Source: Naegleria gruberi (lineage: Eukaryota). Taken from it: a DNA stretch of 64,000 nt. Below are positions 2,483-46,467 of the stretch, piece by piece; the first letter of the stretch is position 1; the number at the start of each line of letters is the position of its first letter. The notes under the pieces are model-generated. The model was not told the origin of the DNA. It ran no database searches and was given only the letters and a program-made list of their open reading frames with translations. The stretch is taken from the NCBI GenBank assembly GCA_000004985.1, contig GG738863.1; one strand, written 5' to 3'. The position numbers and the translations under genes are program-made.

Positions 2483-2967
2483 TTTATTGTGAATTAAATC
2501 TCTCTACAGTTCAATCTTAATAATTCATTCTATCGGACTATTTGTGAAATAGCACAAAGTTAAATTCACGAGTTGACTGAAGACAACATGATGTTTATTT
2601 ATTATCTCAATTAACATCTCTTGATATTAGAGAAAATGCAATTGGTTGTAAGGAGCTAAACATTTAACTGAACACTCTAATCAAAATGATTAAAAACAAC
2701 CACAAACATTTATTACCTTTCCATTTCTTATTCGAATCAATTCAATATTAATAATTAAAACAAAACATCATTATCAATTATAAATATTTTATCTCGAGAA
2801 AACCAAAAAGTTAAAAACTAAATATTACCAAAAATAGACGCACTCCAAAACCAATACAAAAAAAGATCCAACTCCTCCTCTCAACTGTTTGTTCATACGT
2901 TTCTTGTAAACGACAATCTATCATCATCAACAGCCAGCATTAATCTTCTTTACAAATTAATTTCGGA

Positions 2968-21972: not shown

Positions 21973-22883
21973 ATGCGAAGAATTCCAAGAACACCTTCTT
22001 CATCATCGAATAATAATCAACACAATTTACCAGTGATTGTTATTGATGATTCCACTGATGAGGATACAAGTATTTTACTTCCAGAAACTCCACCAAGAAG
22101 AGTTGTCGAACAACAGCAACGACAACGGGAAAATCTACCTATTGCTGTCTCTGATGATGAAACAACTCTGAATCCCTTCTCTCCAGGAGGTTCACCTTTA
22201 TATGCACCTTCTTCACCACAACTTCCTCTCAATTCTTTGGATTGGTCAGATTCAGAAGACTCCTCCGAATATGAATCATCATCTGATGAAGATGAAACAC
22301 CAAACCACAATAATATTGATGACTTTCTTGATAGATTAACAAGAGAAGAAGAAAGAGAAAGAGTCACCACTCACCAAACTCACCCACCAGTTGTACAATA
22401 CCCTTCAGTAGTGAATAGTAATAATAATTATAATAATTATAATTATTTACAATCACGACTGATCAATAATACTAACAGTAATAATAATATCAACTTGACT
22501 CTTCCCTTCGTGAATAACAATAATAATAGTAGTAATAATAGTAGTAACAGTAGTAGTAGTAATAATAATTCTAACAGAAATCTATTGCATCAACATAGAT
22601 TGCAGTCAACATCAGCAATAGCAGCAAGAATTCCAATTCAAGCATCCCGTAGATTTATAACTCCAACTACTTCTTCTACAAACAGAAATACACCTTTCGC
22701 ATCAGCATCTAATCATGCAAATCATCACCATCATCAACATCTTTTCACTAATAGAAATAATATCATAGGAATTCAAAGAAACAATGACCACCATGATACA
22801 CCATTTGAAAGAATGGTTGAAGAACATATTTTAGCCCAAGTTATTGCACGAACCCAACGTCACCAAGTGGGAGGAGCTATCCA
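21973..22883 (+). CDS. 5' part of an N/S/H-rich low-complexity protein, truncated by the assembly gap
   Basis: ATG at 21973 with open frame into the gap. PolyN and polyS runs. Its relationship to the post-gap gene is unknown. Confidence 0.35.
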
Positions 22884-24948
22884 NNNNNNNNNNNNNNNNN
22901 NNNNNNNNNNNNNNNNNNNNNNNNNNNNNNNNNNNNNNNNNNNNNNNNNNNNNNNNNNNNNNNNNNNNNNNNNNNNNNNNNNNNNNNNNNNNNNNNNNNN
23001 NNNNNNNNNNNNNNNNNNNNNNNNNNNNNNNNNNNNNNNNNNNNNNNNNNNNNNNNNNNNNNNNNNNNNNNNNNNNNNNNNNNNNNNNNNNNNNNNNNNN
23101 NNNNNNNNNNNNNNNNNNNNNNNNNNNNNNNNNNNNNNNNNNNNNNNNNNNNNNNNNNNNNNNNNNNNNNNNNNNNNNNNNNNNNNNNNNNNNNNNNNNN
23201 NNNNNNNNNNNNNNNNNNNNNNNNNNNNNNNNNNNNNNNNNNNNNNNNNNNNNNNNNNNNNNNNNNNNNNNNNNNNNNNNNNNNNNNNNNNNNNNNNNNN
23301 NNNNNNNNNNNNNNNNNNNNNNNNNNNNNNNNNNNNNNNNNNNNNNNNNNNNNNNNNNNNNNNNNNNNNNNNNNNNNNNNNNNNNNNNNNNNNNNNNNNN
23401 NNNNNNNNNNNNNNNNNNNNNNNNNNNNNNNNNNNNNNNNNNNNNNNNNNNNNNNNNNNNNNNNNNNNNNNNNNNNNNNNNNNNNNNNNNNNNNNNNNNN
23501 NNNNNNNNNNNNNNNNNNNNNNNNNNNNNNNNNNNNNNNNNNNNNNNNNNNNNNNNNNNNNNNNNNNNNNNNNNNNNNNNNNNNNNNNNNNNNNNNNNNN
23601 NNNNNNNNNNNNNNNNNNNNNNNNNNNNNNNNNNNNNNNNNNNNNNNNNNNNNNNNNNNNNNNNNNNNNNNNNNNNNNNNNNNNNNNNNNNNNNNNNNNN
23701 NNNNNNNNNNNNNNNNNNNNNNNNNNNNNNNNNNNNNNNNNNNNNNNNNNNNNNNNNNNNNNNNNNNNNNNNNNNNNNNNNNNNNNNNNNNNNNNNNNNN
23801 NNNNNNNNNNNNNNNNNNNNNNNNNNNNNNNNNNNNNNNNNNNNNNNNNNNNNNNNNNNNNNNNNNNNNNNNNNNNNNNNNNNNNNNNNNNNNNNNNNNN
23901 NNNNNNNNNNNNNNNNNNNNNNNNNNNNNNNNNNNNNNNNNNNNNNNNNNNNNNNNNNNNNNNNNNNNNNNNNNNNNNNNNNNNNNNNNNNNNNNNNNNN
24001 NNNNNNNNNNNNNNNNNNNNNNNNNNNNNNNNNNNNNNNNNNNNNNNNNNNNNNNNNNNNNNNNNNNNNNNNNNNNNNNNNNNNNNNNNNNNNNNNNNNN
24101 NNNNNNNNNNNNNNNNNNNNNNNNNNNNNNNNNNNNNNNNNNNNNNNNNNNNNNNNNNNNNNNNNNNNNNNNNNNNNNNNNNNNNNNNNNNNNNNNNNNN
24201 NNNNNNNNNNNNNNNNNNNNNNNNNNNNNNNNNNNNNNNNNNNNNNNNNNNNNNNNNNNNNNNNNNNNNNNNNNNNNNNNNNNNNNNNNNNNNNNNNNNN
24301 NNNNNNNNNNNNNNNNNNNNNNNNNNNNNNNNNNNNNNNNNNNNNNNNNNNNNNNNNNNNNNNNNNNNNNNNNNNNNNNNNNNNNNNNNNNNNNNNNNNN
24401 NNNNNNNNNNNNNNNNNNNNNNNNNNNNNNNNNNNNNNNNNNNNNNNNNNNNNNNNNNNNNNNNNNNNNNNNNNNNNNNNNNNNNNNNNNNNNNNNNNNN
24501 NNNNNNNNNNNNNNNNNNNNNNNNNNNNNNNNNNNNNNNNNNNNNNNNNNNNNNNNNNNNNNNNNNNNNNNNNNNNNNNNNNNNNNNNNNNNNNNNNNNN
24601 NNNNNNNNNNNNNNNNNNNNNNNNNNNNNNNNNNNNNNNNNNNNNNNNNNNNNNNNNNNNNNNNNNNNNNNNNNNNNNNNNNNNNNNNNNNNNNNNNNNN
24701 NNNNNNNNNNNNNNNNNNNNNNNNNNNNNNNNNNNNNNNNNNNNNNNNNNNNNNNNNNNNNNNNNNNNNNNNNNNNNNNNNNNNNNNNNNNNNNNNNNNN
24801 NNNNNNNNNNNNNNNNNNNNNNNNNNNNNNNNNNNNNNNNNNNNNNNNNNNNNNNNNNNNNNNNNNNNNNNNNNNNNNNNNNNNNNNNNNNNNNNNNNNN
24901 NNNNNNNNNNNNNNNNNNNNNNNNNNNNNNNNNNNNNNNNNNNNNNNN
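22884..24948. other. assembly gap (N run)
   Basis: 2065 N. Confidence 1.
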
Positions 24949-27261
24949 TTGGAACTATTCTCACTGGATGAATTTTTAAAATTGTTGTCTAATGTGACTT
25001 CACCTTCAATTATTACAAGAATGGAGGTGAATGATTCTGCAAGTGGAGAACAGTCAATCGTCTATCAGACAACTGAGGAAAATTTTCAATTATTGACAAC
25101 ACATCTGCTAATGACTTGGGAGAGTTTACCTTCATCAATAGTAATTGTTATTTTCAGACTGTTATTTATGGTCTTTCTAATATCTTTACTTCCGCTTTGT
25201 ATTATTTACAGAAAGAGAGAACCCATCAGAAGAAAGTTACCAGTATCATTTTCTATTCTAATATTGGGTCTCTGTACTAACTCGAGATCTTTAATAGAGT
25301 CTATTCCTGTTCGAAAGATAATATTCTTACAGTACTGGAATCAATATTTGGAGGCGAAAACGAAGATGAATCCTTTCGAGTTTTTCGAAAAGTATTCTCA
25401 AAATGGTATCCCAGATTGGATGTTTAATATTACATATTATGAGAATATCATGTGTTACTCAGTTACTTTTGGTATTGTAATAATTTACATATTTTCAATC
25501 GTACTTTACTTTACTCACATGACCAAATTCATGTTGGACAGAATCATTACTAAGAAAAAAATGACCCTTAAGGATTCATTAGACAGAATCAAAGAAAAAG
25601 GAGCGAAAACAGTCATGTCGAATCAACCGCAACCAACCACTACCGTTCAATCAACCAATGACATTACACTGGTTCCTAAAAGTGTTGAAATTGAATTAGT
25701 GGAAAATGATCCTGCTATTTCCGTAACACTTAATACTATTGAGAATTCCACAATAGGAGACAAGAGATATCCCACATTAACAGTTGAAAACTCAATAGAA
25801 ATTGACAAAAATCTAGTAGCTCCAGAATCAACCGGTCAACTCACTACCATGACTAATGATACTTCCTTGACTACATCTCAACAACAAGGGGGTGGTTCAA
25901 CTAATATTCACATATCTTTCAGTGATGATACAGAGGATGACTTAACTTCAAGTGCTATAACAGATGCTGATGAAATATTTCTTACTGATGTAGACACTTT
26001 TGGGACAGAAGACAAGGAAAATGGATTAGCAACGGAAGGATATGAAAACTTTACAGAGAATACTAAAGCACTGAAAGTAATGCAATTTATAGAAGAGAAG
26101 AAGGTTATTCAAATAGTATTTTCTGTTGGATTGTTTCTAATTTGGTTTATCATTGCTGCTCTATTATTATTGTTTTGGAAGCAGGCGGGCCAATTTGTTT
26201 CTCTTTTTCCTGTTTTTGAGACGATCCAGGGAGTGTGTACTTCTGAGAAAAGATCAACCATTGGGACATTTTGTCTCTTGTTTGGACTTTTATTCCCAAT
26301 TGTATTCGTTTTTGTGTATTCTTTGGATATTTATCAATCAATATCTGAATATAGAATACAAAAGGACACAATTAAGAGGAATAGCCGGCAAGAAAATATG
26401 CCAAACTTTTTCATATACTACTTTATTGACACCGACTTGTTTCTCTACAGGTTAGAATGCTCATTGTTATTTTTATTTGGTGCTTTGTCTGTTTGCTTAT
26501 ATGTCATATTTTGGGATCCATCAGGAGATGACAAGATCAAAGGTTTGATATCACATCTGATATCCCTTTTTGGTATTGAATTTTTTATGATTGTAATTAT
26601 GCCTGGAATTTCAATTTTTGCAACAATTTACAGAACTTGGAAAGAAAAGAAATTGTTAAACAAACAAGATGAAAATTTAGATCAAATGACTGTATTGAAT
26701 TTGAAAAGGTTTGCACCTGGTATTGAATGTATAGATTTTATTCTAACACATCCAATAGAGAGACAGTTGTTTTACAAGTATTTGACTTCTGAGTTTTCTC
26801 AAGAAAATCTTCTCTTCATGGAGGATATTATGAGATTTCAAAGAATACCTCCCCAAAAACTTAGATATAAGATTATGAAATTGAGAGAAATAATAACACT
26901 CTATCTCATTCAGAATAGTTCTGTATTCGAGGTCAATATTTCTAAAAAATTGATTGACTCTGAAATACAGTCCTACATTCTTATTGAGCACATTCTTCAC
27001 CATCACTCAATTAAAATGATCAATCTTCCAAAATTTATCAAGGAAACACCCAAGATTAACTCATTCCCTGAACCGCTTCAACAGAACGACACAGACAGAG
27101 AATTACTACTCAATGCATTCAAGGAAATCAATCATCCAGATTTCATGAAAGGAATTATTACAGAAGCTTACTCTAATTTACTGGATTCTTATCTCAGATT
27201 CATAAGTAGTAGAGTGTGGCTAATACATTTGGAGAAAGTGAAACAATTTGGAATATTGTAA
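24949..27261 (+). CDS. multi-pass membrane protein with a C-terminal RGS domain (7TM-RGS architecture), 3' portion after the gap
   Basis: At least seven hydrophobic helices are followed by the RGS domain ...FILTHPIERQLFYKYLTSEFSQENLLFMEDIMRFQ...LYLIQNSSVFEVNIS.... Stop is TAA at 27259-27261. Confidence 0.6.
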   Translation: MELFSLDEFLKLLSNVTSPSIITRMEVNDSASGEQSIVYQTTEENFQLLTTHLLMTWESLPSSIVIVIFRLLFMVFLISLLPLCIIYRKREPIRRKLPVSFSILILGLCTNSRSLIESIPVRKIIFLQYWNQYLEAKTKMNPFEFFEKYSQNGIPDWMFNITYYENIMCYSVTFGIVIIYIFSIVLYFTHMTKFMLDRIITKKKMTLKDSLDRIKEKGAKTVMSNQPQPTTTVQSTNDITLVPKSVEIELVENDPAISVTLNTIENSTIGDKRYPTLTVENSIEIDKNLVAPESTGQLTTMTNDTSLTTSQQQGGGSTNIHISFSDDTEDDLTSSAITDADEIFLTDVDTFGTEDKENGLATEGYENFTENTKALKVMQFIEEKKVIQIVFSVGLFLIWFIIAALLLLFWKQAGQFVSLFPVFETIQGVCTSEKRSTIGTFCLLFGLLFPIVFVFVYSLDIYQSISEYRIQKDTIKRNSRQENMPNFFIYYFIDTDLFLYRLECSLLFLFGALSVCLYVIFWDPSGDDKIKGLISHLISLFGIEFFMIVIMPGISIFATIYRTWKEKKLLNKQDENLDQMTVLNLKRFAPGIECIDFILTHPIERQLFYKYLTSEFSQENLLFMEDIMRFQRIPPQKLRYKIMKLREIITLYLIQNSSVFEVNISKKLIDSEIQSYILIEHILHHHSIKMINLPKFIKETPKINSFPEPLQQNDTDRELLLNAFKEINHPDFMKGIITEAYSNLLDSYLRFISSRVWLIHLEKVKQFGIL

Positions 27262-28082: not shown

Positions 28083-28667
28083 ATGGGAATATGTGCTTCG
28101 AATATTGGCACAACAACTCTAGAGCCAGCTTCTCCTCAAGAAGAAGGACAGCAAAATAAGTTTATAGGGGCTTCACCCTCACGAGTTTCTCTTAAACAAC
28201 CAGTTGAAAAACAACCTATAGCTCCACGAACAGATAAGCATGAGGCCCTTTCGGGACAGGATCAGAAACATAGAGATTCAAATGTTGACCCCACGCAGCA
28301 AGGTCAAAATGGATCAGCAGCAAAACCAAATGATGAAAGCTCAAAAGATCCTTCAAGGAGGACGACAGCAGCCTCAGGAAATCAACAACCAAATGGTGAT
28401 TTTAAAATATCTTTCTCAGAACAAGGGGATAAATACATGAATGTGCAGAAATGGTTAAACGAATGTATATTGAATGACAAAACACCAAATCCAATTATGC
28501 CAATAGGTGGAGTTATTGTTCACAATATGCCAACACCAGAAGAGATGGCAAAAATTGGTCAAGTTAACTCGTCGACGCAAGTCTCAACAACAGAGGACAA
28601 TACTTTAGCAGGACTTAAAAGGCATAAGAGTATGATGCCCAGCACTAAACAATATCAAATATCATAA
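28083..28667 (+). CDS. hypothetical protein with an N-terminal MGxCAS (possible myristoylation/palmitoylation) motif
   Basis: 194-aa ORF. ATG is in ataATGg context. Stop is TAA. Confidence 0.45.
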   Translation: MGICASNIGTTTLEPASPQEEGQQNKFIGASPSRVSLKQPVEKQPIAPRTDKHEALSGQDQKHRDSNVDPTQQGQNGSAAKPNDESSKDPSRRTTAASGNQQPNGDFKISFSEQGDKYMNVQKWLNECILNDKTPNPIMPIGGVIVHNMPTPEEMAKIGQVNSSTQVSTTEDNTLAGLKRHKSMMPSTKQYQIS

Positions 28668-28689
28668 CATTGAATTTATTAAAAAAAGT

Positions 28690-31600
28690 TTAAACAATAC
28701 GAGAAAGGGCTAATTGTCTCTCTCTGGTTAACTCAAGAGTATTAACTTGTTCTTCGTCACTTGGTGCTTGTTCACTTGAGCTAGCATCATTGTTGGATTC
28801 AGTAGTTGAAGCAGTATTGTTGGATTCAGAAGTGGCAGCCGATGAATTTTTGGATTTGGTAATGATATAATTCTTTGGAGTGGATTCGACAAACTTTTGT
28901 ACAACACTAAGGATAAGATGCATGACGGCTTCTTTTTGAGAATCAATTCTCTCAGATGAAGCAATTAATAGTCTGAGAATATCATACTTGATCATCAAAA
29001 TTGCCAAATGATTAGGGTTAGAAACTGAAAGAGCCAATTGAAGGAGGAATGAACCGATGAAGGTTATTATCTTATGTGAACTTTCTATTTGCAAAATATT
29101 TGAAATTTCATTGAATACCAAATGTGGTTTCTTTGAGCAAATTTCAATAAGCAGAGAAGTACCACCAACAGTACTTTGTGGATCCATGAAAGAAGTAAGA
29201 AGGAAGTGAATAAACTTATTATCTCCCTTCATATTGGAATCCAAATTATCATTGGTATATTCAATGAGGCTTTCATACAAATCACAAGCACTAACAAAGG
29301 TGCCTAAAACTTCCAAATAGATTCTAGATTCTTTTGGTTTTTCAATAATGTATGAAACAAGTTTGTACAGTAAAGTCTTGGCAGTCTCACCATTTGAAGA
29401 GGATGACTGTGTTGCAGCTTCTTCAGTAGGAGCATCCTTTGTCTCAATAAATCTGTTTCTATTGATTTGGAACATTTCCTTGACAAGCCCAAAGAAAATG
29501 GATGGATTTCTCTCAATCAGAGAGGCATTTTCAGCAAGGAACAAGCGAACTGTAAGACGACTACCTGCAGTCTTTGGATGTCTTCTCTTCAAAATGTTTC
29601 TCATGATGGATTTTGTGTTATCCTTATCACAGACAATATTCAAGAGAATTTGTTCAATAGTTTGAGCATTAGATGCCTTCAATACCAATTCAAAGTGTGG
29701 AGAATTAAAGAGTTTGGTGCAGCNNNNNNNNNNNNNNNNNNNNNNNNNNNNNNNNNNNNNNNNNNNNNNNNNNNNNNNNNNNNNNNNNNNNNNNNNNNNN
29801 NNNNNNNNNNNNNNNNNNNNNNNNNNNNNNNNNNNNNNNNNNNNNNNNNNNNCTTGAACATTCTTTGGTTCATTTGTAAGTCTTTCAATTGCAGCATTCA
29901 CTACGAAATCCTTCAATGTATCCTTCTTCTTAGCAAATATACTGAGCACATCAATACAGGCATAGGCTAAACCCTTGGTAAAAAGTCTAGCGGTGAGCCA
30001 TTTATCACTCTCTTCTTCAAGAACGACTGAATAATCTGTCTTGTCCTCTTCATCGTTCATCATTCCAGATTCTACCATAGACATTCTAATAGCTTTACTT
30101 AATTCGTCTTCATCTTCTTCCTCCTCCTCTTCTTCAACCTCTTTTGGAATGGTATTGTTGAGAATCCACTCTGCAGCTACCATTACATCATTATTGGCAC
30201 CTCTGAGAGCGGCACGAGCATCTTTTTGAGTAAATCCCATTTCCATCAATTGGTTGACCTTATCTTCGTCCTCTTTAACAGGTGAAGTTTCCTTCTTGCT
30301 TGTATCACATCCCTTGATAATATGACCAACAACATTGATGAGACAAATCAAGAATGTAGTACTGCCCTTCTCAATATTCTCATGATTCCATACCTTGGCA
30401 ACAGCTCCAGCAACCTTCTTTTGGACTTTAGTGGTGAGCTCAGAAACTTTGAAACCATCAAGAGCAAACAATTTGGCAGTTATTGGTGATTGAGCAGCGT
30501 AGTTGGCTGATGTAATCTTTTGGAGGAATGCTGTAAAATCTTCCAAACATGCAGAAGCAATACCATATTCACTTGATTCATATTCAAAAAGATAGATAGG
30601 ATCGGCTGATTCTGGTTTGCTTGGTTTTTTGACATCTTGTGACAAGATTAAATTTACAAGATCAACATAAAGCTTCATGATAGAATCAATAACACCCTTA
30701 CTAAGCATATTGTCAAGTACAAGAGTATTCAAATTTCTATAAGTTTCACTGATAACAACACTATAAATTAATGTCATTAAAGAATGTACATGAGCAGCCT
30801 TGACTGTCCAGGAAAGGTTTTCATCATTGAGAACCTTTTGAGCTTCTGTAACAGAGACTGAGAAATTTTGAACTAAAAGGCCAGCAATCTCTTTGGCTTT
30901 CAAAATAGATTCTGCTTGACCATCATGTTCAATAAGCTCGAAAATAGCTCTTTGAAGAGATTGATAAAATCTGAAAATTAGGGTCAAATATGAGCTAATG
31001 GTATTGTTGTTAAACTTTCTCAATGATCTGGCACCAATCTCTTCTTGAGTTTCCTCAACAGGTTTAGTTTCAGCAGAAGAGGAGGCAGCTGAGGAGCTAG
31101 AAGTAATGGATGTTGTAGATGTGTCCAGAGTCTTTTCTTCAGAGACAATAGGTTTCTTTCTCTTAAGGGCTGCAATTTCATCCTTCAAAATTTGAGGCTT
31201 GGATTTGGCAATATAGAGTCTAACTTTTGATTCCAAACGTGCTAAATCAGTTAAAACATCACCTTTCTTATTTTTCCATACTTCCACAAATGAATCTTCT
31301 GATTGTTCAAAGCAATTACTCATAATTTCAATAATAGTTGTAAGAGCGAAAATAGTCTTAATAGTACTGAATTTCTCAAATTCCAATTCTCCTGCATTCA
31401 ATGCACCCAGCTTGGAGTTTAAAATCTCGGACATCCCTTCATACACCAAAGTACTATGGCTTCTAATTAAATCCTTGAATACCACAATATATCTCATTGG
31501 TTCGATGGCGTTTTGAGTAGATGGCACAAGAGACAAATCTGTAATCTTCAACAACACTGGGAAAAATCCCTTATCAACGAAGAGAGTAGCATTATCATGT

Positions 31601-33906
31601 ACAATAATACCAATGGCCAATACAAACTGGGAAGCCAACATGAAAATAGGATGGCCATTCTTTCCTTCTTCCAAGTTTGCTTGCTCTAGCTTTTCTAAGA
31701 GTTCATTCATAATTTTTACAACTGAATTTACAATATTTTCCTTCAAGGCAGGATAAGTTTTGGACAAGGCAGCAATTTCAGAACCAATTGAAAAACCGAC
31801 ATCTTTCTTGATTGCCTTCGAATACTTTTCATTCAAGAAAATCCTCAAATAATTGTAGAAAGTGTCATCTGAAGCAAGCTTTTCCCTGAAATCTTGATTG
31901 AGGCAAAGTGAGTTAATTAAAAGTAAAATATTGTGTAAAACTTTGGCATAAGGAGGAACCCCATTTTTAGCAATATCCAAAATCAAATCAAATGTTCCAA
32001 AGCTTCTAATAATTGAAATGTTAGCAACATCCTTTGCAATCAAAGTGTATATTAAATCAATAATGCAAGCAAAATTTGCTGGACCAAACCAAGTGTAATT
32101 CTTTACAACAAAGTTGATATTATTCATTTGCCTTTCTTCCAGTATTTCTGTATTAGTTGTATCGTGTCTTGAATAGGCACTGGAAATAATTCTCAAAAGA
32201 CTTGAAAGAGTTGGAGATTGATATGGGCTGAGTACTTTGAATACAATTGTATTGGATGAACCATCTGACTTTTCAGTGTTGGATTCTTCCAACTTAGTAA
32301 TTTTGGATTGAGATACCTCAATAATATCTGAAAACAATTTAATGCAATCAGAAAGTACTGTAGGTGCTGTTTGTACTCCAGACTTTGGATCCAAGAATAA
32401 TTCTACAATAGAAATACATTTCATAACTACCAACTCATCTTTTGCATAAAGTAAAGTAGTAATCTCATTAGCAATCCCAGAGTCATTTAAATGTTTTGAA
32501 CCATTTGCTGTTCTAGAAATAGAAACAAATAAGTCCAAAAGTGTTTCTAAATACAATCTATCTGTAATGTAATCTGAAGGGTCTGTGACTTCTCCGTTTA
32601 CATAAACATTAATTAACTTTTGAAGCCAACCTTGAAGAAGACCACTGTAAATATTTGTGGTCAGTGTTAAAGTTTGAAGAGCAGCAGTTTGTAATCTAGA
32701 ACTCTTGAATACAGATATAGAAATATAGAACTCAAGCAAACTTATAGCAACTTCCTTTGGAAGTTTAAGTTCTCCACGTTTGTCTTTTTCAATACTTTTG
32801 CTCACTTCTGGAATGATTTCAAGAGAAGTTAAGTCCTTCTTTGAAACATACAATAACACTGAGAATGAATTGAATCTACTGACTAGGAACTTTCTTCTAG
32901 TTTCCAAGTTATAGAATGCATAGGCCATACGAATTCGCGTCCACAAGTCAAACTTTTTGTTGATAGTAAGCTTGCTGACAATAGAGCCTTCCTTTTTGAT
33001 TAGATCATTCCAAAGTGTTAAAGCATCTGGTGCTGTTTTCTTTACATCCTCAATAACAAGTTCTTCTTCTTGCAATTCCTCAGATCTAAATTCATGTTCA
33101 AGATCTTCAGTCACAACTTTAAACTTGACAGAGGTTCCCAACTTGAGAGTTTCATCAGAAATAGTTTCATCATAGCAAAATTGAGTAGAATCCTTTCCGT
33201 ACCCCTTAGCAATAAAATTTAATTTATGAATAAAGGTAGGTGGATGCTCAACAACTCCTTTAGAAATCATACTATTCTTTTTGAAACATGATAAGCAAAT
33301 TTGTAAAACTAAATGCAAAATGTCCAAATTTTCAGAGTTGAGTAAATATGTAAGTCTCTGATCATGTTGTTAATTTGATGTTATAATTGTACAACAACTT
33401 ACATCCAAAGAACTATACTGAGAATATCCGATTTTTGTGTTTTTTACAATCATCAAAGACATGTCCAAAATTGATAAGATCATTTCTGTGTGTGGTGTTT
33501 TTTGACATTGTTTTTGTTCCTTTGATGTTTGTTTTTGTTTCTTTGATGACTTTTCTCCGAATGATAGAATATTACTCTTGGTGATAATCTTTTCTAAAAT
33601 TTCATCGAATTTGTTCAAAATATCAGACCATTGCTCAAGCACAGTCTAACCAATTACGATCATCCTTGAATTAGTATTATTATGTTACATACCCGTTTGC
33701 AAGCCATCAAAAATTCATCACTCGATTCCGTTATGATTTGTTTGATTACTTTACTCAAATCCTCTGGTTTAGAAGGTAAAATCTTTTGTGTATATAATTT
33801 AATTTCATCGTCCTAACATATTTGATATTATTGTATGAGTATGATGATAGAATTAAAATCATCAACTAACCTGTTCCCAAGTTTCTTCTTTCTTGCTGAT
33901 CAACAT
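28690..33906 (-). CDS. HUWE1/Tom1-like N-terminal ARM-repeat protein with UBA and UIM, about 1650 aa; no HECT domain found in the locus
   Basis: Structure is join(33871..33906, 33693..33782, 33403..33645, 28690..33357), with introns of 88, 47 and 45 nt (GT...AG). The N-terminus MLISKKEETWEQ...DEFLMACKR...WSDILNKFDEIL parallels the HUWE1 N-terminus (..WVDLLDRFDGIL). A UBA domain (LMEMGFTQKDARAALRGANNDVMVAAEWIL) is followed by an acidic stretch and a UIM (DELSKAIRMSM). Internal gap at 29724-29852. Stop is TAA. Confidence 0.6.
29724..29852. other. assembly gap (N run)
   Basis: 129 N. Confidence 1.
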
Positions 33907-34044: not shown

Positions 34045-35720
34045 TTATTGGACAATATTGTTATTCACTATGGTTTTCAATTCCTTTTCCTTTGAAGTTA
34101 CATCTTTCAAAATGTTGGAAAGTTTCAATTTGAGATCTGTTATCTCCACAAGATCATTCATTGATTTGATTTCTTCTTCTGAAAGTGAAAACTTTTCTGT
34201 TGAAATTTTTTCCTTTTCTTTAAGGTTGTCCTCAAGTTTATCCAACTTTCGTTTTTGTAAACGCACAAGCTTTTGAAGCATTCTATATTCGTTTTCTTCA
34301 CTAATAGTCATTGAGCTTTCAGATGTAATTGGTTGACTATTCTGTTTTCTTTTGATTGATTCCAGTAAGAAGAAAATTCCAGAAGGATTATCAATTCCCA
34401 AGTCAAGGAAGAGACATTTTAAACTTTGAACCGAGTCAGAACTATTGATTGTTGTAGGTTGTTGTGAATTTTTCTTTGACACCTCCTCAAACTCTTTCAT
34501 CTTTTCTCTCAAAAAACTATCCACTGGATTGGTTACATTGTGACTATTCTCTATTGAAGTAATTATATTTTCAATTCCAAGATTTTTGAATGTGGATAAC
34601 ATTCTTCCTCTTACGAATCCATCCTGTGGACATGAAACCATTGAACTGATGAGAGAAAAGACTTTTGCTCTATAGAGATCATCTCTTTGCCAGGCCATTG
34701 AATCTAACATTTCATCGAATGGATGTTTCAAAGTTTTTGTATGTTTCGTTTTAAATGTTTCAAAAAATCCAGTTAAAACAATCCAAAAACCCTCCTCAGA
34801 ATGATTACAAATGAGGAATAGAATATCTAGAATGTACTTTCGGGTTACTAAACTTTCCTTCTTATCTATCAGCTTTGTGAGTGAGGAAATAAAGGCAACA
34901 GAGTCAGCATTTGTGAATGGAGCAAAGACTTCCTTCTCCAACAATATCAGTAAACAGTAAATGTAATTTCCCTGTATGAATTTGTGTTTTTGTGTTCTGT
35001 AAACATAATTCAGTTTTGCAATGATTTTACCAATAAGTGTGACGCCTCCCATGTTTGAAAAATCTTGGCACCAAGTCAAATCTTTAAATTTAAATATCGA
35101 CGCAAGTGTAGAAATATATTCTGGGTCATTCTTATTGAGTTCTGTAGTGAGTCGTGAGAGAACAAATCCAACACTCACTTGCTTTAATTCTTCAATAATT
35201 GAGCTGGTTTTGAAAAGTCTATTATCCCTATTACCAGATGAAGAAGAGGATGACTTCATTCTCTTATGAGTTGAAAGAAGTGGTCCTTCATAGGAGTGTC
35301 TTTCCAATAATTCTGAAATTTTGTAAAACGTGTCACAAATAGCATGAATATCTAAGTTATTTACAAGTGTCGAGACATTCCACTCGGGGTCAATATTAAA
35401 CAATTCTCTACATTTATCTAGGAAGAATTGAATATTATTTTCAATGAGAGTTGAATTTCCCTGTGGTTCCAATGAAATGGAAGCCAAATGGTCTCTTGGA
35501 TTAATGTTTGCAATATTACAAATTAATCTATTATAAAAATTATTAGAATAATGAATTTTCTAATAAAAACAACCTACTTGACAAGAACAACTCCATCCTT
35601 GAGTAATAAATGTAAATCATCCGAATCAGATTTGCTCTTCTTATCGGGCACTAATTGACCAAGCCAGTCTTTAATCATAAGACGTTGCAACTTGGTAAAG
35701 TGTTGATGGCATTCAGTCAT
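34045..35720 (-). CDS. armadillo-type protein resembling a formin GBD/FH3 region plus a coiled coil; no FH1/FH2 present
   Basis: The 480-aa ORF 34045..35487 has a non-ATG ORF-track start. An upstream ATG exon near 35576-35720 (MTECHQHFTKLQRLMIKDWLGQLVPDKK...) joins only if an approximately 18-nt GTAGGT..TTAG segment is removed. The coiled-coil C-terminus ends with TAA. Confidence 0.35.
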
Positions 35721-36255: not shown

Positions 36256-36813
36256 ATGGGTTTGCTTGATTTTATTAGAGGTCTCAGAAAGTCTGATAAG
36301 GAAGCTCGTATTCTTATTCTCGGTCTTGATAACAGTGGTAAGACTTGTTCCTTGAAGTGTCTTGCTGGTGAAAAGGAAGAAATTTCCACAGTTATGCCAA
36401 CCCAAGGCTTTAACATTAAATCTGTTCAAACCGGAAACGTTAAACTCAATGTCTGGGATATTGGAGGTCAAAAGGCTATTAGACCATACTGGCCAAATTA
36501 CTACAAGAATGCTGATGCCATCATTTACGTTGTGGACTCTACTGATAGAAACCGTTTTGAAGAAGCAGGTTTTGAACTTGATTGTTTGCTGAAAGATGAA
36601 AATCTTGATGGTATTCCATGTTTGGTTTTCGCTAACAAGCAAGATATTCCACTCATTGCTGCAAGTGCTGCTGAAATTGCTAAGGTTTTGAATTTGCACG
36701 CTATTAAGGGAAGAGATTGGCACATCCAAGCTTGTTCTGCTAAGACAGGACAAGGTCTCGATGAAGGTATCCAATGGGTTCTCGGAAAGCTCGATCTTGT
36801 TGATTCTAAATAA
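36256..36813 (+). CDS. ARL3: ADP-ribosylation factor-like GTPase ARL3
   Basis: Single-exon 185 aa: [12 protein letters not shown]...[12 protein letters not shown]...[12 protein letters not shown]...[10 protein letters not shown]...IRPYW...FANKQD...LNLH. These residues are diagnostic of ARL3 rather than ARL2. Stop is TAA. Confidence 0.85.
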
Positions 36814-38599: not shown

Positions 38600-41500
38600 A
38601 AGATTAAAAAAATTTTATTTCAGTGTAGCTGATCCCAATAGGATCATGAGGTATTATCTTGAATTAAGAGAACATGAGTAATATTTTCTGTGTGCTTTAC
38701 CAACAAGTAGTGATAATAGACTTTGAATTTCATGCCAATTATCAATGATTTTAGGATTATAGGATTTAACTAAAATAATATTTAAAGCCTTAATAAAGCC
38801 TCTATGATTTAAATTGAGAATTGAATTGTGTCTATCCCAAAAAGTGTCATGGGGACGAAGCTTACAGGATGCTCCTGTAAGATTCGTGAATTTAGTTAAG
38901 AAATATCTTCTAAAACATTCGGTTTCTTCACAGTAGTATATGAAATGTTCCAAATCCACTTCACATTCACAGTTATCACAATAAACTTGACGAAATTGTC
39001 TAATATGTGAGTCGGTCATGTTTCTCCAAATTGACAATTTGGTTTCAGTGTCAAATCTTTGATCCATATATTTCAAATTGATATTAGTGAGGGACTGACT
39101 TTGGTTAAAAGGTAAGTCAGATTTATCCTCAACAATATCTAAATATTCTTTTCTCTGGATATCTTTGATGTATTTTCTATAGTCAAAGATGATTGTTTTC
39201 TTATTAGTATTAATTAAAATCTTTTGGTTTTGGGATAATAGTTTGGTAATATCAATCATATTTTGTCCTTGTGCACCTTCTTTTGCTAATTTATCAACTA
39301 TAATATTCTCTGGATCTTCATGCCCTTTCACTTTAACTAGATGGATATTTAAATGTTTATCCTTAATGGTACCAAAGAATTCTTCTTGAAATCCTTGAAA
39401 GTCTCCTCTGTAACTCTTTTTTAAAACTTCAATAGCAACTTGACTATCAGTATGTACATTAGCATTGGAATGATTTGGCAGCATTTTGATTGCTGTTAAT
39501 ATAGCCATGATTTCAGCCACGTTATTGGAATATTCTTCATGAATCTTGAAGGAATATTTGAAACTTCTATTTTCTGAATTATATATATTAATTCCAAATC
39601 CCACTTGGTTTTCAATTTTTGATCCATCTGTGTGAATATTAAATGAATGACCCTCCATTTGATCCAAATTAATATCATTGTCAATATCATTACATTCCTT
39701 CAATTCGATATTATATCGTTTCATAGTTTGTAGAATACTATCAAAGATATTGCTAATTCTCTTCTTTTTACCAGCATGTTTGATCCCATCTTTAATTGCC
39801 TCTCTTACTAGAGGGTTTCTACTATTTGTTAAATATAAAATAGAGTTAATATTAATTCTTTGAATGAAATCATTACAGTTAGGAATACCCAATCCTCCAT
39901 ATTCAATAGGTAAATGGAACCAATGAGTGTGACTTCTTAAATCTAAATGAGCTCTTCTTCTAATACATTTCCTAATAGCAGTATCTATTTTATCACCTAA
40001 AGCTGCTGGTATGATATTACATCTAGATAAATGTGTGAATAAACTGATACATTTAGCATGTATCACTTTTCCAATATTTGGAATTTCCATTCTCATAATA
40101 GGCATATATTTCAGTGATAGTTGAAATTTAGCAATCTTATTCATAATGTCTTCTTTTACCATTTTATCATCCCATGGATAGTGACCAAGAACTCGTACAT
40201 TTTCTTCAAGTGGTATTTTGGTATCATTAATTTTTGGTTTCATTTTCTTAATTTTCTTAGTAGGGTTCGGTTTCTGTGTTGCAACTGATTTGGATGGATT
40301 GATCTTTAGTGATAATTTCCCAAGCCATCTATTTAGGTCTTTTAATCTTGAATTATAATTGCAATTTTTAGTCGCTGTTAAATTTAGGTCATCAGCAAAA
40401 CATAGAATTCCAATATCATCTGCTTTGAGTTTTTTAGGTTTTACGGGAATATCCCACTTGTCTATACATTTATCAATAATTAATTGAGTAATACAATCGT
40501 AAACCAGGGGAGCTAATGGACAACCTTGTGGGATGCCCCTGGTTTTGTGAATGGGTCTAGATAATGAGTTTCCTATCTCTAAGCTTAATAAATGGTCTTT
40601 GTACGAGTTGAGGATAAATTCAATTAATTCATTAGGGAATTTACAATGATGTAGAGCTAATTCAATTACCTTCAGTTCAACAGAATCATAAGCACCTTCT
40701 ATATCCAAGTTTACAATTAATAGAGGGTCTTTTTCTCTATTGGCTTTATGTGCTAAAGCTGATAATACTATTCCATGATTCATTGTACTTCTGTGTGAGA
40801 TAAATGCTTGTTGTCTAATATTTATGTTCCTACTAGCCCATCTTCTTAATTTAAAAGCAATAACATTGAATAATAATCGGTAATAAATTGGTAAGATGGT
40901 TATTGGGCGAATATCATTCAATTTCTTAACTTCTCGCTTAGGTACTAATTTTACCCACCCTTGTTTCCATTCTAAGGGAATATTTCTTGTTTGGAGACAT
41001 TCATTAAATTTTTCTACTAACAGCTTTAAATTATCATCTGATAGTTTCTTAATAATATTAAATGATATAAAATCTAGTCCAGGTGTGTTAGATTTCATTC
41101 TTTGAATAGCTTTCTTAACAGAATTCATAGTTATTTTGATTTTTGATGGGCCCTTTGAAATAGTAGATGGGGCACAATTAAATTGAATTGAATCGGTTTT
41201 AGATTGGAACTTTTGCTCAAAGTAGTCAATCAATTCCTCTTCTTCAAAATCAACTTGTTTCCAGTTAATTGACTTCTCCTTAATATGTCTATCAAATTGA
41301 TATATTAATGATGAATCGTATCGATTAAATGATTCAGAAATCTTTCTCTTAATTTCCTCTGCACATCTATGATAAAGGTCTTTAATTTCAGATCTAACTC
41401 TTTCTATTTGGTCTGTATCATTGTTCTCTGAATTAATGAGATCATTCAATTCCTCTTCTTTCGACTTAATCTCTTGTCTTAATTCTGATTCATTAGTTTT

Positions 41501-43870
41501 AATTCGAATTCTATCATTCTTTCTTAAATTTTCAATAATAAAGGATTTAATTTTGTTATCTAATTCATTAAAGCTATCAGGAACTTCTCTGTTAATAGAT
41601 TCAATAAATTTTTGAATCTTTGTTGGACTAATATATGGTCTCCATGTATCATTAGTCTCTAATTCAATATCAATATAGAATGGTTGATGATCATTCTTAG
41701 TTATTGATGGTAAAATCTTCTTATTTCTAATAATAATATTATTTGAAACGAATATATGATCAGGGTGAGTTTTAGTTGTACCATCTCTTGTTTTTCTAAT
41801 GTAGGTGTATTCATCAGGAGCTATAGATTCATAAAAATTGAAAGTATCAAAGAATTCACACCACATTCTATCTCTCATTGAAGTGGGATTAATGGTATTT
41901 ATATTCGGATCTCCCGATATAATGAAATATTCTCCTTGATGTGCACTTATATACTCTATCATGGTACTTAGTATTTTATCATCATATGATTCACTCTCCT
42001 CATCATTTCTAACACTTATATAGACTGTAAAGATATTAATTGGTTTTCCTCTTGTTTCAAACTTTGTTAATTGAAGTAATCCTGGAATAAGATTGGTATT
42101 ACATAACAATCTTTTCCTTCGGTTGTTAATAAAATGTAGCAATGCAGTGCCTTTACAAGCTTTTCTGGTTCCCATTAATGAATTAAAAAAGAAATGTCCT
42201 CTTCCTGATTCGAAAGCCCTTTGTTGATCTTCTAATTTGTTAATGTGAGTTTCGGTAATGCTTATAATTTGAATATTATGTTGGTGACAAATTCCCTTAA
42301 TAGCATGAGTTAGGATCTCTTTAGTTTCTGTTTTAATAAGACCATTCACATTAAAACATCCCACTCGGAAATTGCATTTTGGATTAATCATTGGCATGAT
42401 ATTTTAGTTGTGGTTCATCCTCATCATCTATATCATCATGCTTTCTTCTTACTTGAGGATTTGGAGCCATTCTAACATCTCTAATTTCTTCATCTTCTAC
42501 CATCTTCTCTAACATGTTATCAATATGATTTCCAATCAGTTCTAATTCTTGGTTATCAATAATATTATTTGGTTGGTTTTGTAACCATATTGGAATTTTA
42601 TCCATTAAATTTTTGAATTCTTTTTCTGTGTTTTTAACAACTACATTAATTTCATTGAATTGTTCTTGTAATTTAGTATAATTCATTTCCAATAAATCAA
42701 GTCTTTCCATAATTCTATCTAATTTGCTGTCATTATTAATTGAGGTACTATCAGGTTGTTTGTTCACTTTATATTTCTTTGTAAGATATTCAGCAGTGGA
42801 TACAAATTGAATAAAGTGCATGATACCAATAGGATCTCTCTTTGGAAAAACCACTTTAGTAAATCTATAAACTTCATCGTCAGATTGTAATCTAATATTA
42901 ATAATATAATTATTATTTAATAGTTTACTAATTTTAATATTTTCTTTTTTAATAGTAATATTAGATCTTTGTTCAATTGTTTTAATTGATTCAGACACTT
43001 GTTCCTCTGTGAAGTTCTTACTCATAACAATAGATACATCTAAGGAGCTTTCATTAATAATTTCTTCAATTTTACGATAGGTTTCAAACTTATTTTGAAT
43101 TAAATAATTAATTTTAGTGTTTGTTAGGAGAGAAACTCTCAACTTGTATTGTGAAATAGATTTGTTTGAGTCATAGTTTAAACTAACATTAATTTGATCA
43201 ATATCAATATCATTAGAATTAATAATTAATCTATATTTTTCCATAAATTCTTTTTGATTCTTGGTATAGTATTTTACAGCATGTTCAGTAGCATTAAAAT
43301 TCATAGGGGAAGCAAAGTATTTAGCAGGTGCTTCCTTAATAACTTCTTGATTAGTAAGTATTTTCATAGCTTTGATAAAGTTATCTCTATTATTAATAGC
43401 TAATTGAAATATAAATTCTTATTTACAGGGATGTAATAATAATCACATAGATGTTTACCTTACTGAGGAAAAATTCAGCAATAGTCTCAGTAATGTTGGT
43501 TTGACAATAGATAGAAATGCTAGTGCTATAATCAATAGTCTTTTGTCTCTTGTGTGACATTTTAAGATTTTCTTTTTGTTTAAGATTTCCATTCCGTTTG
43601 TTTTCGTTTAAATTAGATTCGGAAATATTTTTAGCAACCACCTTAATTTTCGGAATTTTCTCTTCACTTGCTGGAGCTTTGGCAACTTCCACATAGGTAG
43701 GTTTAATTACTTCCGAGTTATTTTTAGTCTCATTGGGGGGCTTTATCATCGGAAGCATGTTTTCAATAATAGACTTATACGTATTGATCATTACAGTCTG
43801 CCGCTTTATTAGGTCGACAAGCGAAACAGGTTGGAGGTGTAGACTCATTTTTTTTGAACTCAACAAGATT
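38600..43870 (-). mobile_element. apparently intact non-LTR (LINE) retrotransposon: ORF0 43423-43866, ORF1 42384-43367, ORF2 38654-42397 (APE endonuclease, RT, RNase H, C-terminal Cys motif)
   Basis: The 1247-aa ORF2 contains an N-terminal exo/endo-phosphatase-type endonuclease, RT motifs including FADD, RNase H (HTDGS...VAEI...), and a C-x2-C...C-terminal motif. ORF1 overlaps the ORF2 start by 14 nt. The element is more AT-rich than neighbouring host genes. The ends are approximate. Confidence 0.85.
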
Positions 43871-43874
43871 AAAA

Positions 43875-44983
43875 AAATGCCTCCACCAAGCCCTCCACCC
43901 TCTCAACCCATCAATATTTATTCATCATCCTCATCTAATACACCTACTACTCATGGATTATCGACAACAATTCAAATATCAAAATCGTATTCACCTCCGA
44001 GATATTTTATGAATAGAGTGATCAGTCCTACAACACCCAATATAAATAATAATAATACTTCGGGAAGTGGATTAACGTTCAATCCTTCATTTATGAATCC
44101 TCCGATAATTGATGAAAATCAAAATGAATTTTTGGAATTAATTGAAGCTGAAACCTATGTTGATATTGAAAGATTAAGAGATATGTCTAGACATGGCATT
44201 CCTGATGATTTGAGAGCTTCAGTGTGGAAATATCTTCTTGGTGTTAACCCAGGTGACAAGGCAGAACAAATGAAAAGAGAACATATTTATTTTCAATCTG
44301 TGAAACAACAACAATTACAAAATAATTCTTCATTGGGATTATTCTACTACTCAAAGAGACAAAATATTATTTTATCAGTGGTGCAACAATCACTAAATCA
44401 GTCAAAAATCAAACACTACACCATTGAAGAGTTATTATATCTTTTGAGGCCTTTTGAATCTGTTTATATGAGCGACCCAATACAACCAAATGATGGAAAG
44501 GATTTGGAAAAGAATATTCACGATATGTATAGATGTTTTGAAGTTTTCCTTCAGAAGAATTATTTCAAAGAAAGTCTTTCCTATCAAGTTGCCAAATTGA
44601 TTACTCTTTTCAAATGTACACAACCAGACTTGTATCAATATTTTGTCAATGAAGAAGTAGAACCAAATGAATGGTGCCTTCCATGGATAAAATACTTGTT
44701 ATCGAAACAATTACCTTTGGATTGTGTTAGAAGACTTTGGGATACCTATTTTTCCACAAACGATTTTGATTTACATATTTACGTTTGTCTGGCAATATTA
44801 CAATACTACAATGAAACTCTTATGGAATTGGAATATAGTGAAATCAAATACTTTTTGAATAACATTTATACTATTGATAAGTCGACAGAAGATGGAGAAA
44901 ATAGTTTGATAAGAATTATTCCACACATTCTTAAACAAGCATATAATTTTAGAGCTTATGTGAAATCAAGGCAGTTAATTTAA
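43875..44983 (+). CDS. TBC (Rab-GAP-like) domain protein, possibly non-catalytic (TBC1D7-like)
   Basis: The ATG at 43875 (aaaaaATGc) sits immediately beside the LINE 5' end. A P/S-rich N-terminus is followed by the TBC motif IPDDLRASVWKYLLG. Clear IxxDxxR / YxQ catalytic fingers are not evident. Stop is TAA. Confidence 0.55.
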
Positions 44984-46256: not shown

Positions 46257-46467
46257 TTTTTAAATGTAAAAAATTGGCGGTAATTTATTTAACGTTAATT
46301 TCTATTTTGAAAATTTCAAAGCTTTTAGACCCAACCTATTCAATGGTGCTAAAGTGATGTCAAACCTTAATACAAAGAATAACAAATTATTTGAAATGCA
46401 AATAATAAACACTTCAATTCCACAATACAACCAAAGTACTTCAATTTCGTAATTTAAAAATAAAAAA

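What the first reader, a model, noticed from the sequence alone, without database searches (positions are those of the whole stretch)
28690..33906. HUWE1/Tom1-like giant E3 N-terminal half (ARM repeats, UBA, UIM) encoded without any HECT domain in the locus
The 4-exon gene reproduces the N-terminus, ARM-like DUF908/DUF913-type region and the UBA-acidic-UIM module of HUWE1/Tom1 ligases. It terminates with TAA at 28690. The next 600 nt hold an unrelated plus-strand gene, and no HECT-like ORF exists anywhere nearby. That leaves two options: a scaffold/adaptor derivative of HUWE1 that has lost its catalytic domain, or the catalytic half is encoded elsewhere (split gene).
Basis: partly seen in the sequence, partly recalled or inferred. 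Interest (0 to 1): 0.5.

Follow-up and report, generated by a model that had tools for sequence, protein, structure and literature searches.

The report
HECT-less HUWE1 N-terminal homolog, Naegleria
This Naegleria gruberi gene is real and conserved, and it encodes only the substrate- and ubiquitin-binding front three-quarters of a giant HUWE1/Tom1-type ubiquitin ligase, stopping exactly at a natural domain boundary, so the catalytic HECT part is either encoded by a separate gene or has been lost.

Summary
The window is Naegleria gruberi. Pfam finds DUF908, DUF913 and UBA; a UIM aligns with that of human HUWE1. No HECT lies in the 64-kb window.

The truncation is not an artefact. N. fowleri (1854 aa), N. 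lovaniensis (1839 aa) and an environmental relative (at least 1674 aa) end at the same place. In three taxa the same small convergent gene follows the stop directly.

Profile-profile alignment (99.3%, E 2e-20) maps the post-UIM region onto HUWE1 ARLD2-C plus ARLD3, up to ARLD3's last helix. So the protein is ARLD1-ARLD2(UBA/UIM)-ARLD3 and stops where the acidic disordered linker begins. It lacks UBM, ARLD4 and HECT.

The euglenozoan Entosiphon keeps the fused 3,553-aa form, so the Naegleria state is derived. Other, unidentified protists have stand-alone N-halves and C-halves broken at this same boundary.

I could not find a Naegleria C-half. A published N. fowleri expression table does list a gene whose best Swiss-Prot hit is TOM1 (E 1e-69), too strong for the N-half. 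A split E3 is slightly favoured over a HECT-less scaffold. This is a new variant of a known kind, of moderate interest.

The parts
33871..33906 (-). Exon 1 (ATG at 33906-33904; MLISKKEETWEQ)
   Evidence: gene model. The N-terminus 'M[IL]I..' matches N. fowleri and N. lovaniensis.
33693..33812 (-). Exon 2 (..KILPSKPEDLSKVIKQII..)
   Evidence: The homologous exon is present in the environmental relative at L002 2091-2240.
33403..33645 (-). Exon 3 (QWSDILNKFDEILEKII.. the most conserved N-terminal block; start of DUF908)
   Evidence: The homologous exon is at L002 2259-2504.
28690..33357 (-). Exon 4, running to the TAA stop (28692-28690). It encodes the rest of ARLD1, ARLD2 with its UBA-UIM insert, and ARLD3.
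   Evidence: It is collinear with human HUWE1 92-687 and 1236-1405 and with vertebrate HUWE1 1435-2249.
31684..32340 (-). DUF913 match (protein residues 473-691)
   Evidence: Pfam PF06025, E 8e-20, 71.6 bits against a cut-off of 24.7.
30163..30273 (-). UBA domain (residues 1162-1198)
   Evidence: Pfam PF00627 E 5e-9 and PF22562 E 1.4e-8. It aligns with the human HUWE1 UBA.
30064..30117 (-). Acidic run plus UIM-like motif (..EDEDELSKAIRMSMVESG)
   Evidence: It aligns with the human HUWE1 UIM 'EEDQMMRAIAMSLGQ' and is invariant in the three Naegleria proteins. The Pfam UIM model did not report it.
29724..29852 (.). Assembly gap (129 N) inside the coding sequence. It hides roughly 120-170 residues of the ARLD2-C/ARLD3 region.
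   Evidence: The orthologs have about 170 residues here.
28690..29723 (-). ARLD3-equivalent C-terminal solenoid, followed by a Ser/Asn/acidic tail and the stop
   Evidence: hhalign gives 99.3% probability, E 2e-20, to vertebrate HUWE1 up to the last ARLD3 helix. The family HMM matches full-length relatives collinearly. The AF2 model of the N. fowleri ortholog is all-helical, with ARM-repeat fold hits.
28675..28680 (-). AATAAA hexamer 10 nt after the stop codon
   Evidence: Read directly from the sequence. Its function was not tested.
28083..28667 (+). Convergent neighbour NAEGRDRAFT_79455 (194 aa, MGICASN.. N-terminus). It blocks any 3' extension of the gene.
   Evidence: Exact match to EFC45347/D2VCQ2. 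Orthologous ORFs sit directly after the gene in N. lovaniensis (L001 15896-16102) and in the environmental relative (L002 7639-8073).

Best explanation
SHOWN. The locus is a genuine gene under long-term purifying selection in the Naegleria lineage. It encodes ARLD1, ARLD2 (with the UBA and UIM ubiquitin-binding insert) and ARLD3 of a HUWE1/UPL1/Tom1-type ligase, and it terminates at the ARLD3/acidic-linker boundary. It has no UBM (DUF4414), no ARLD4 and no HECT. The fused gene is the ancestral state, because the euglenozoan Entosiphon and all other supergroups sampled have it.

INFERRED. The gene arose by fission of the ancestral gene inside the long disordered linker. Its product is the substrate- and ubiquitin-binding three-quarter ring. 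This most likely docks non-covalently onto a separately encoded linker-UBM-ARLD4-HECT polypeptide, re-forming the closed solenoid. Substrates held by the ARM grooves and by UBA/UIM would then be presented to a HECT domain supplied in trans. In the human structure these two blocks are already joined only by about 920 disordered residues and pack against each other at the ARLD3/ARLD4 junction and at the ARLD1/ARLD4 ring-closure interface. Cutting the linker therefore need not destroy the assembly.

The confidence of 0.5 refers to the inferred trans-assembly. The shown part (a real, conserved gene that is HECT-less in cis and ends at ARLD3) I hold at about 0.95.
For: The gene is real and conserved:
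- Intact orthologs of about 1,840-1,850 aa exist in N. fowleri and N. lovaniensis (37-38% identity, same Pfam set, no HECT).
- An environmental relative has an ortholog of at least 1,674 aa.
- All of them end within about 35 residues of the same 'LELT' position.
- The convergent small gene follows the stop in N. gruberi, N. lovaniensis and the environmental contig.
- No HECT lies within 10 kb in N. lovaniensis or in the 64-kb window.

The boundary:
- PDB profile hits to human HUWE1 92-687 and 1236-1405 (E 8e-20) and to Tom1.
- The family HMM is collinear with full-length relatives up to their positions around 1,900-2,300.
- hhalign gives 99.3%, E 2e-20, ending on the last ARLD3 helix.
- Domain limits are taken from Hunkeler et al. 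2021 (PMC8476073).

Ancestral fusion: Entosiphon sulcatum P0156 is 3,553 aa and carries HECT.

Precedent for fission at this same point:
- C-half genes begin in the acidic linker, with an in-frame stop upstream and no N-half on the contig (P0306/L003 and P0308/L098).
- A transcript-like contig carries a 2,270-aa N-half ORF that stops right after ARLD3 (P0195/L004).

A TOM1-like HECT gene elsewhere in Naegleria:
- A table of N. fowleri differentially expressed genes lists a gene whose best Swiss-Prot hit is TOM1_ASHGO at E 1.29e-69 (PMC11682717 supplement).
- The N-half reaches only E 8e-18 against fungal Tom1-like proteins, even in a tiny database.
- Grau-Bove et al. 2013 (PMC3673628) imply that excavate class VI HECTs carry DUF4414 but not DUF908, DUF913 or UBA.
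Against: - No Naegleria C-half sequence was recovered. The word-indexed protein searches appear to be length-limited and were swamped by candidates. An AT-biased HECT-motif scan of metagenomes found no recognisable heterolobosean contig.
- The published TOM1-like hit carries no gene ID. Its E-value (1e-69) is weaker than expected for an orthodox HUWE1-type HECT (around 1e-120), so it could be another class VI HECT.
- The family-wide His-Gly of the ARLD1 ring-closure motif (human Y355-H356-G) is Y-[S/N]-G, or F-S-G in the environmental relative, in all four heterolobosean sequences. The stand-alone N-halves of other protists keep the His. This is compatible with a lost or remodelled ARLD4 contact.
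- Trans-assembly itself is untested.
Confidence: 0.5

Rival explanations
1. HECT-less scaffold or ubiquitin receptor. After the fission or a C-terminal deletion, the catalytic half was lost, or it diverged into an unrelated role. The ARLD1-3 solenoid with UBA and UIM then survives on its own as a non-catalytic adaptor. It would bind ubiquitylated or unfolded clients and hand them to other E3s, to the proteasome or to segregases.
For: - The protein keeps two ubiquitin-binding elements and the ARM grooves and is conserved across the genus.
- The conserved His of the ring-closure motif is replaced in all heterolobosean sequences.
- No C-half was found in any search here.
Against: - The searches able to find a C-half were weak, so absence is not shown.
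- An N. fowleri gene with a TOM1 best hit exists.
- Other protists with the same break keep a C-half.
- No stand-alone function is known for HUWE1 ARLD1-3 (my own knowledge).
Confidence: 0.35
2. Artefact of assembly or annotation, or a transcript-level join. In this reading the real mRNA continues to HECT exons, through a mis-assembled scaffold, a very long intron or trans-splicing.
For: The window is a draft scaffold with six N gaps, one of them inside this gene. No RNA data were available.
Against: - The same stop region and the same convergent downstream gene occur in three independently assembled genomes or contigs: N. gruberi, N. lovaniensis on a 676-kb contig, and a metagenome contig.
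- The N. fowleri protein ends likewise.
- An AATAAA follows the stop.
- There is no HECT within 10 kb downstream in N. lovaniensis or within about 28 kb downstream in the window.
Confidence: 0.04
3. A decaying remnant (pseudogene) of a HUWE1 gene that lost its 3' half.
For: HECT is absent. The gene appears to be unannotated in the N. gruberi record, because the flanking genes have consecutive accessions and the protein is not in the protein collection.
Against: - Uninterrupted reading frames of about 5 kb persist in four taxa that are only 35-38% identical to N. gruberi.
- Hundreds of columns are invariant, including the UBA, the UIM and the N-terminal motif.
- The missing annotation is explained by the internal N gap.
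Confidence: 0.02

Closest known systems
Human HUWE1 (PDB 7JQ9, 7MWD, 9PLR; Hunkeler et al. 2021, PMC8476073)
   Same: - Collinear ARLD1 (DUF908/DUF913), ARLD2 with a UBA-UIM insert, and ARLD3.
- The conserved N-terminal 'W..LN+FD.IL' block.
- The Tyr of the ring-closure helix-loop-helix.
   Different: - Ends at the equivalent of about residue 2,250 of 4,374.
- No WWE, HWA or BH3 inserts, no Tower, no UBM (DUF4414), no ARLD4 and no HECT.
- The ring-closure His356 is Ser/Asn.
Plant UPL1/UPL2, fungal Tom1/Ptr1 and other full-length family members (for example Chlorokybus P0131, Luapelamoeba P0137, Entosiphon P0156)
   Same: These are the best full-length relatives. Homology is collinear over the whole Naegleria protein. 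UPL1 and the protist forms share the UBA-UIM position and also lack WWE.
   Different: All of them continue for about 1,200-2,000 further residues (acidic linker, UBM, ARLD4, HECT) in the same polypeptide.
Naegleria fowleri 'unnamed protein product' (P0001) and N. lovaniensis C9374_003001 'UBA domain-containing protein' (P0002)
   Same: These are orthologs, with the same architecture, the same end point and the same downstream neighbour.
   Different: They are 37-38% identical and have a 30-35-residue longer acidic tail. They are annotated only as hypothetical or UBA proteins, and their relation to HUWE1 and the missing HECT have not been noted in any paper I could find.
Stand-alone halves in unidentified protists: N-halves P0195, P0202 and P0270 (2,244-2,510 aa) and C-halves P0306, P0308 and P0309 (1,894-2,102 aa). 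These probably correspond to the 'DUF4414-HECT only' families HECTHe3 and HECTAl1 of Grau-Bove 2013.
   Same: The break falls at the same ARLD3/acidic-linker boundary.
   Different: - The lineages are different (GC 53-65%).
- Both halves are seen in databases, though I have not shown that any pair comes from one organism.
- Their N-halves keep the ring-closure His.

Membership tests
HUWE1/UPL1/Tom1 family (HECT class VI, giant solenoid E3) | DUF908 (ARLD1 N-part) | tested here: met
   PF06012, E 4.4e-10, 40 bits against a cut-off of 34.7.
HUWE1/UPL1/Tom1 family (HECT class VI, giant solenoid E3) | DUF913 (ARLD1 C-part) | tested here: met
   PF06025, E 8e-20. PDB profile hits to HUWE1 (E 8e-20) and Tom1 (E 7e-11).
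HUWE1/UPL1/Tom1 family (HECT class VI, giant solenoid E3) | UBA plus UIM inserted in ARLD2 | tested here: met
   UBA: PF00627, E 5e-9. UBA and UIM align with human 1236-1405. The Pfam UIM model itself did not fire.
HUWE1/UPL1/Tom1 family (HECT class VI, giant solenoid E3) | ARLD3 solenoid following ARLD2 | tested here: met
   hhalign 99.3%, E 2e-20, to vertebrate HUWE1 1435-2249. The family HMM is collinear with many full-length members. The AF2 model has low confidence (pLDDT 60) and gave only generic ARM hits.
HUWE1/UPL1/Tom1 family (HECT class VI, giant solenoid E3) | UBM repeats (DUF4414) and ARLD4 | tested here: not met
   There is no Pfam hit. The protein ends before this region.
HUWE1/UPL1/Tom1 family (HECT class VI, giant solenoid E3) | C-terminal HECT domain with catalytic Cys | tested here: not met
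   Absent from the protein, from the 64-kb window and from the N. lovaniensis locus. The gene is therefore a homolog of the family's non-catalytic part, not a HECT ligase.
Split (two-gene) HUWE1 | A separate gene in the same genome encoding linker-UBM-ARLD4-HECT | tested here: inconclusive
   Not recovered. Indirect support comes from an N. fowleri gene with a TOM1_ASHGO best hit at E 1.3e-69 and from the statement in Grau-Bove 2013.
Split (two-gene) HUWE1 | Physical association of the two polypeptides | not testable with these tools
   This needs co-IP/MS, or an AF-multimer run once a C-half sequence is in hand.

The most novel reading that the evidence does not exclude
The giant HUWE1 ring is naturally encoded as two genes in Heterolobosea, and independently in at least two other protist lineages. 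In each case the cut falls at the same ARLD3/disordered-linker boundary, and the active ligase is assembled in trans from an ARLD1-3 substrate-binding subunit and an ARLD4-HECT catalytic subunit. If so, the 900-residue linker of animal HUWE1 is dispensable as a covalent tether, and there would be a natural two-component HECT E3.
Probability: 0.4. Interest if true: 0.6.

Novelty: new variant of a known kind. Interest (0 to 1): 0.45.

Why it matters
HECT ligases are regarded as single-chain enzymes whose N-terminal regions bring substrates to a C-terminal HECT. Grau-Bove et al. stress that the HECT is always C-terminal in one polypeptide. A conserved gene that holds only the ARLD1-3/UBA/UIM part of HUWE1, cut exactly where the human structure has a disordered tether, is one of two things. 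It may be a natural two-subunit version of a giant HECT E3, which would help in dissecting how the ring feeds the HECT and in making the 480-kDa enzyme tractable as two pieces. Or it may be the first case of the HUWE1 solenoid used as a non-catalytic ubiquitin-binding scaffold.

There is also a practical point. The gene appears to be missing from the N. gruberi reference annotation, and HECT-centred surveys cannot see it.

Tried and rejected
1. Word-indexed protein search with the whole protein returned only two Naegleria proteins. I later realised the tool seems to return only proteins within about 1.75x of the query length. It therefore says nothing about full-length relatives. The exhaustive HMMER search supplied those.

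2. A search with the human HUWE1 HECT and one with an X-padded Entosiphon UBM-ARLD4-HECT query were meant to find a Naegleria C-half. Neither returned a Naegleria entry. The first was saturated by animal fragments and the second by low-complexity candidates.

3. An AT-codon-biased DNA pattern for 'P..HTCFNQ.D.P' was scanned over metagenome contigs and gave 92 loci. The AT-rich HUWE1-type hits were anaerobic-fungus-like (L022, L065) or ciliate-like (L045, L054). Several others (L010, L025, L074, L082, L096) share only the C-terminal HECT motif with otherwise unrelated proteins. None came from the sample that yielded the heterolobosean N-half contig.

4. A sequence search of the post-UIM region against PDB found nothing. 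An AF2 model from a 3-sequence alignment was weak (pLDDT 60), and Foldseek gave only generic ARM repeats. The region was assigned instead by family HMM and hhalign.

5. P0312 looked like a divergent stand-alone C-half, but it contains the ARLD3 end and is simply cut by the contig end.

6. Supplements of the Naegleria pangenome paper and the BMC Biology genome paper held no usable HUWE1/TOM1-type entries. The supplements of Grau-Bove 2013 are not held.

7. The N. gruberi annotation could not be displayed, because the gene-position index lacks that assembly.
Full report
**What is there**

The window is an AT-rich (about 33% GC) draft eukaryotic scaffold with six runs of N. Two of its ORFs are exact matches to Naegleria gruberi proteins: NAEGRDRAFT_79455 at 28083-28667 (+) and NAEGRDRAFT_79456, an ARL GTPase, at 36256-36813 (+). 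Both sit on a 467,654-bp scaffold.

On the minus strand, a four-exon model (33906-33871, 33812-33693, 33645-33403, 33357-28690) gives an in-frame CDS of 5,067 nt ending in TAA at 28692-28690. The exon junctions are validated by continuous alignment with orthologous proteins and by the same exon layout in a related environmental contig.

The orthologs have about 170 residues there, so the true protein is probably about 1,800 aa. An AATAAA lies 10 nt after the stop, and the convergent gene NAEGRDRAFT_79455 ends 22 nt from it.

**Family assignment**

- Pfam finds DUF913 (E 8e-20), DUF908 (E 4e-10, above the cut-off), UBA and UBA_7, and no HECT.
- A profile of the three Naegleria proteins hits human HUWE1 at residues 92-687 and 1236-1405 (UBA and UIM; E 8e-20), and yeast Tom1 (E 7e-11).
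- An exhaustive HMMER search of 1.84 billion representatives with the N-terminal 1,125 profile positions finds 327 relatives. The long ones are HUWE1/UPL1/Tom1 proteins of 3,000-4,600 aa with a C-terminal HECT.

**No HECT in cis**

Pfam scans of the 20 longest ORF segments of the window found a reverse transcriptase (RT/RNase H ORF), RabGAP-TBC, Tcf25, copine, tubulin, a Ras-family GTPase, an RGS domain, a BTB domain and others, but no HECT. tblastn with the human HUWE1 HECT found nothing in the window or in the N. lovaniensis locus.

**The truncation is real and conserved**

- N. fowleri (1,854 aa) and N. lovaniensis (1,839 aa) have orthologs with the same domain set and no HECT.
- All of them end shortly after the same 'N(S/T)LELT' position. 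The other two species have a 30-35-residue longer acidic tail.
- In N. lovaniensis (676-kb contig) the gene is followed, after 84 nt, by a minus-strand ORF whose C-terminus (..PNPILPIGGVFVHNMP..LKRHSSMLPSTKHYEIS) is the ortholog of NAEGRDRAFT_79455. No HECT gene lies within 10 kb.
- A metagenome contig (L002) from an uncultured relative carries a fourth ortholog (at least 1,674 aa). It has the same exon layout and the same end point. The same 'MGICASN..' convergent gene starts 22 nt after its stop.

Mis-assembly, mis-annotation and pseudogene decay are therefore excluded for practical purposes.

The N. gruberi protein itself is absent from the 15-billion-protein collection. The flanking genes have consecutive accessions (EFC45347, EFC45348). 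The gene therefore seems to be unannotated in the reference, probably because of the internal gap. This is an inference.

**Where the protein stops**

Published domain limits for human HUWE1 (Hunkeler et al. 2021, PMC8476073) are:
- ARLD1: 1-840
- ARLD2: 841-1610, with UBA/UIM inserted at 1317-1390
- WWE: 1611-1683
- ARLD3: 1750-2259
- a largely disordered 2259-3179, containing the Tower and UBM elements
- ARLD4: 3179-3989
- then HECT

The ring closes through an ARLD1/ARLD4 interface.

The post-UIM region of the Naegleria proteins has no direct PDB sequence hit. A four-sequence family HMM nevertheless matches it collinearly to full-length relatives, for example Luapelamoeba 1588-2126, S. cryophilus Ptr1 1366-1786 and Tilletia 1665-2224.

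hhalign against an alignment seeded on vertebrate HUWE1 gives 99.3% probability and E 2e-20, covering 1435-2249. It skips the WWE, HWA and BH3 inserts. It ends on the last ARLD3 helix pair: '..[24 protein letters not shown]' aligned to '..LSLDHPSASSTVNYLLSTIDICLK'.

An AF2 model of this region is all-helical but of low confidence, and it matches only generic ARM repeats.

The protein is therefore ARLD1-ARLD2(UBA, UIM)-ARLD3. It stops where the acidic disordered linker begins, and it lacks UBM, ARLD4 and HECT.

**Polarity and precedents**

Entosiphon sulcatum (Euglenozoa, in Discoba like Naegleria) has a fused 3,553-aa protein with HECT. The Naegleria state is therefore derived.

Other, unidentified protists show both stand-alone pieces with the same break:
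- C-half genes begin in the acidic linker, with an in-frame upstream stop and no N-half on the contig. Examples are P0306 on a 13.7-kb contig and P0308 on an 8-kb contig.
- An intronless, transcript-like contig has a 2,270-aa DUF908-DUF913-UBA ORF that stops just after ARLD3.

This fits the 'DUF4414-HECT only' heterokont and alveolate families in Grau-Bove et al. 2013. It also fits their remark that, under an excavate-first root, DUF4414 but not DUF908/DUF913/UBA is recovered for class VI (PMC3673628).

**Is there a Naegleria C-half?**

I could not retrieve one. The protein index searches were length-limited or saturated, and a codon-biased metagenome motif scan found no recognisable heterolobosean HECT contig.

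There is indirect support. A published table of N. fowleri differentially expressed genes lists a gene whose best Swiss-Prot hit is Ashbya TOM1 at E 1.29e-69 (PMC11682717 supplement). The N-half reaches at best E 8e-18 against fungal Tom1-like proteins, even in a 52-sequence database. That entry must therefore be a HECT-bearing gene.

Against a conserved trans-interaction, the ring-closure motif argues the other way. It is Y355-H356-G in human and 'HG' across the family, including the stand-alone N-halves. In all four heterolobosean sequences it is Y-[S/N]-G, or F-S-G in the environmental relative.

**Verdict**

The best-supported account is a gene fission at the ARLD3/linker boundary. It produced a conserved ARLD1-3/UBA/UIM protein that most likely works with a separately encoded ARLD4-HECT half (about 0.5). 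The alternative is that it works alone as a ubiquitin-binding scaffold (about 0.35). It is a homolog of the non-catalytic part of HUWE1, not a HECT ligase by the defining criterion. I rate it as a new variant of a known kind, of moderate interest.

Noticed in passing
window 38657-42403 (-): A 1,249-aa ORF with reverse transcriptase (RVT_1, E 3e-28) and RNase H domains, that is, a retroelement. It is inserted between the ARL gene and the RabGAP-TBC/Tcf25 genes, which are syntenic with N. lovaniensis.
   Followed up: partly
window 34045-35487 (-) and 28690-33906 (-): An FH3-like/coiled-coil ORF of at least 480 aa and the HUWE1-N gene both lie between genes with consecutive GenBank accessions (EFC45347, EFC45348). 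This suggests about 7.6 kb of unannotated coding sequence in the N. gruberi reference.
   Followed up: partly
representative proteins P0152, P0163, P0166, P0172, P0174, P0187, P0204 and P0226, and HECT-only P0122, P0125 and P0126: Eight HECT-less Tom1-like representatives of 2,776-3,732 aa all end at the same motif '..LRSLRALDYLMTGR'. Of these, only P0152 was traced to a taxon: it is from the smut fungus Tilletia. Ustilago, Sporisorium and Malassezia have HECT-only proteins of 556-585 aa. This looks like a second apparent split, or a systematic annotation break, just before the HECT domain.
   Followed up: no
L003 1453-7137, L098 1378-7539, L004 269-7081: Stand-alone C-halves (acidic start, UBM, ARLD4, HECT) and a stand-alone N-half transcript occur in unidentified GC-rich protists. 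They break at the same ARLD3/linker boundary as the Naegleria gene.
   Followed up: partly
L010 6266-9223, L025 8525-11464, L074 7980-11195: AT-rich metagenome contigs carry ORFs of about 980-1,070 aa. These share only the extreme C-terminal 'LP.SHTCFNQIDLP' HECT motif, inside otherwise unrelated proteins. They may be giant-virus-like.
   Followed up: no
window 21973-27261 (+), gap 22884-24948: A large gene for a multi-pass membrane protein with an RGS domain is interrupted by a 2,065-nt assembly gap. Its N- and C-terminal parts are joined only through N-derived X residues.
   Followed up: no
window 43697-44980 (+) and 46453-48342 (+); L001 1-2752: RabGAP-TBC and Tcf25 genes lie upstream of the HUWE1-N gene in both N. 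gruberi and N. lovaniensis, but in a different order and with different intervening genes. The region is broadly syntenic with local rearrangement.
   Followed up: partly
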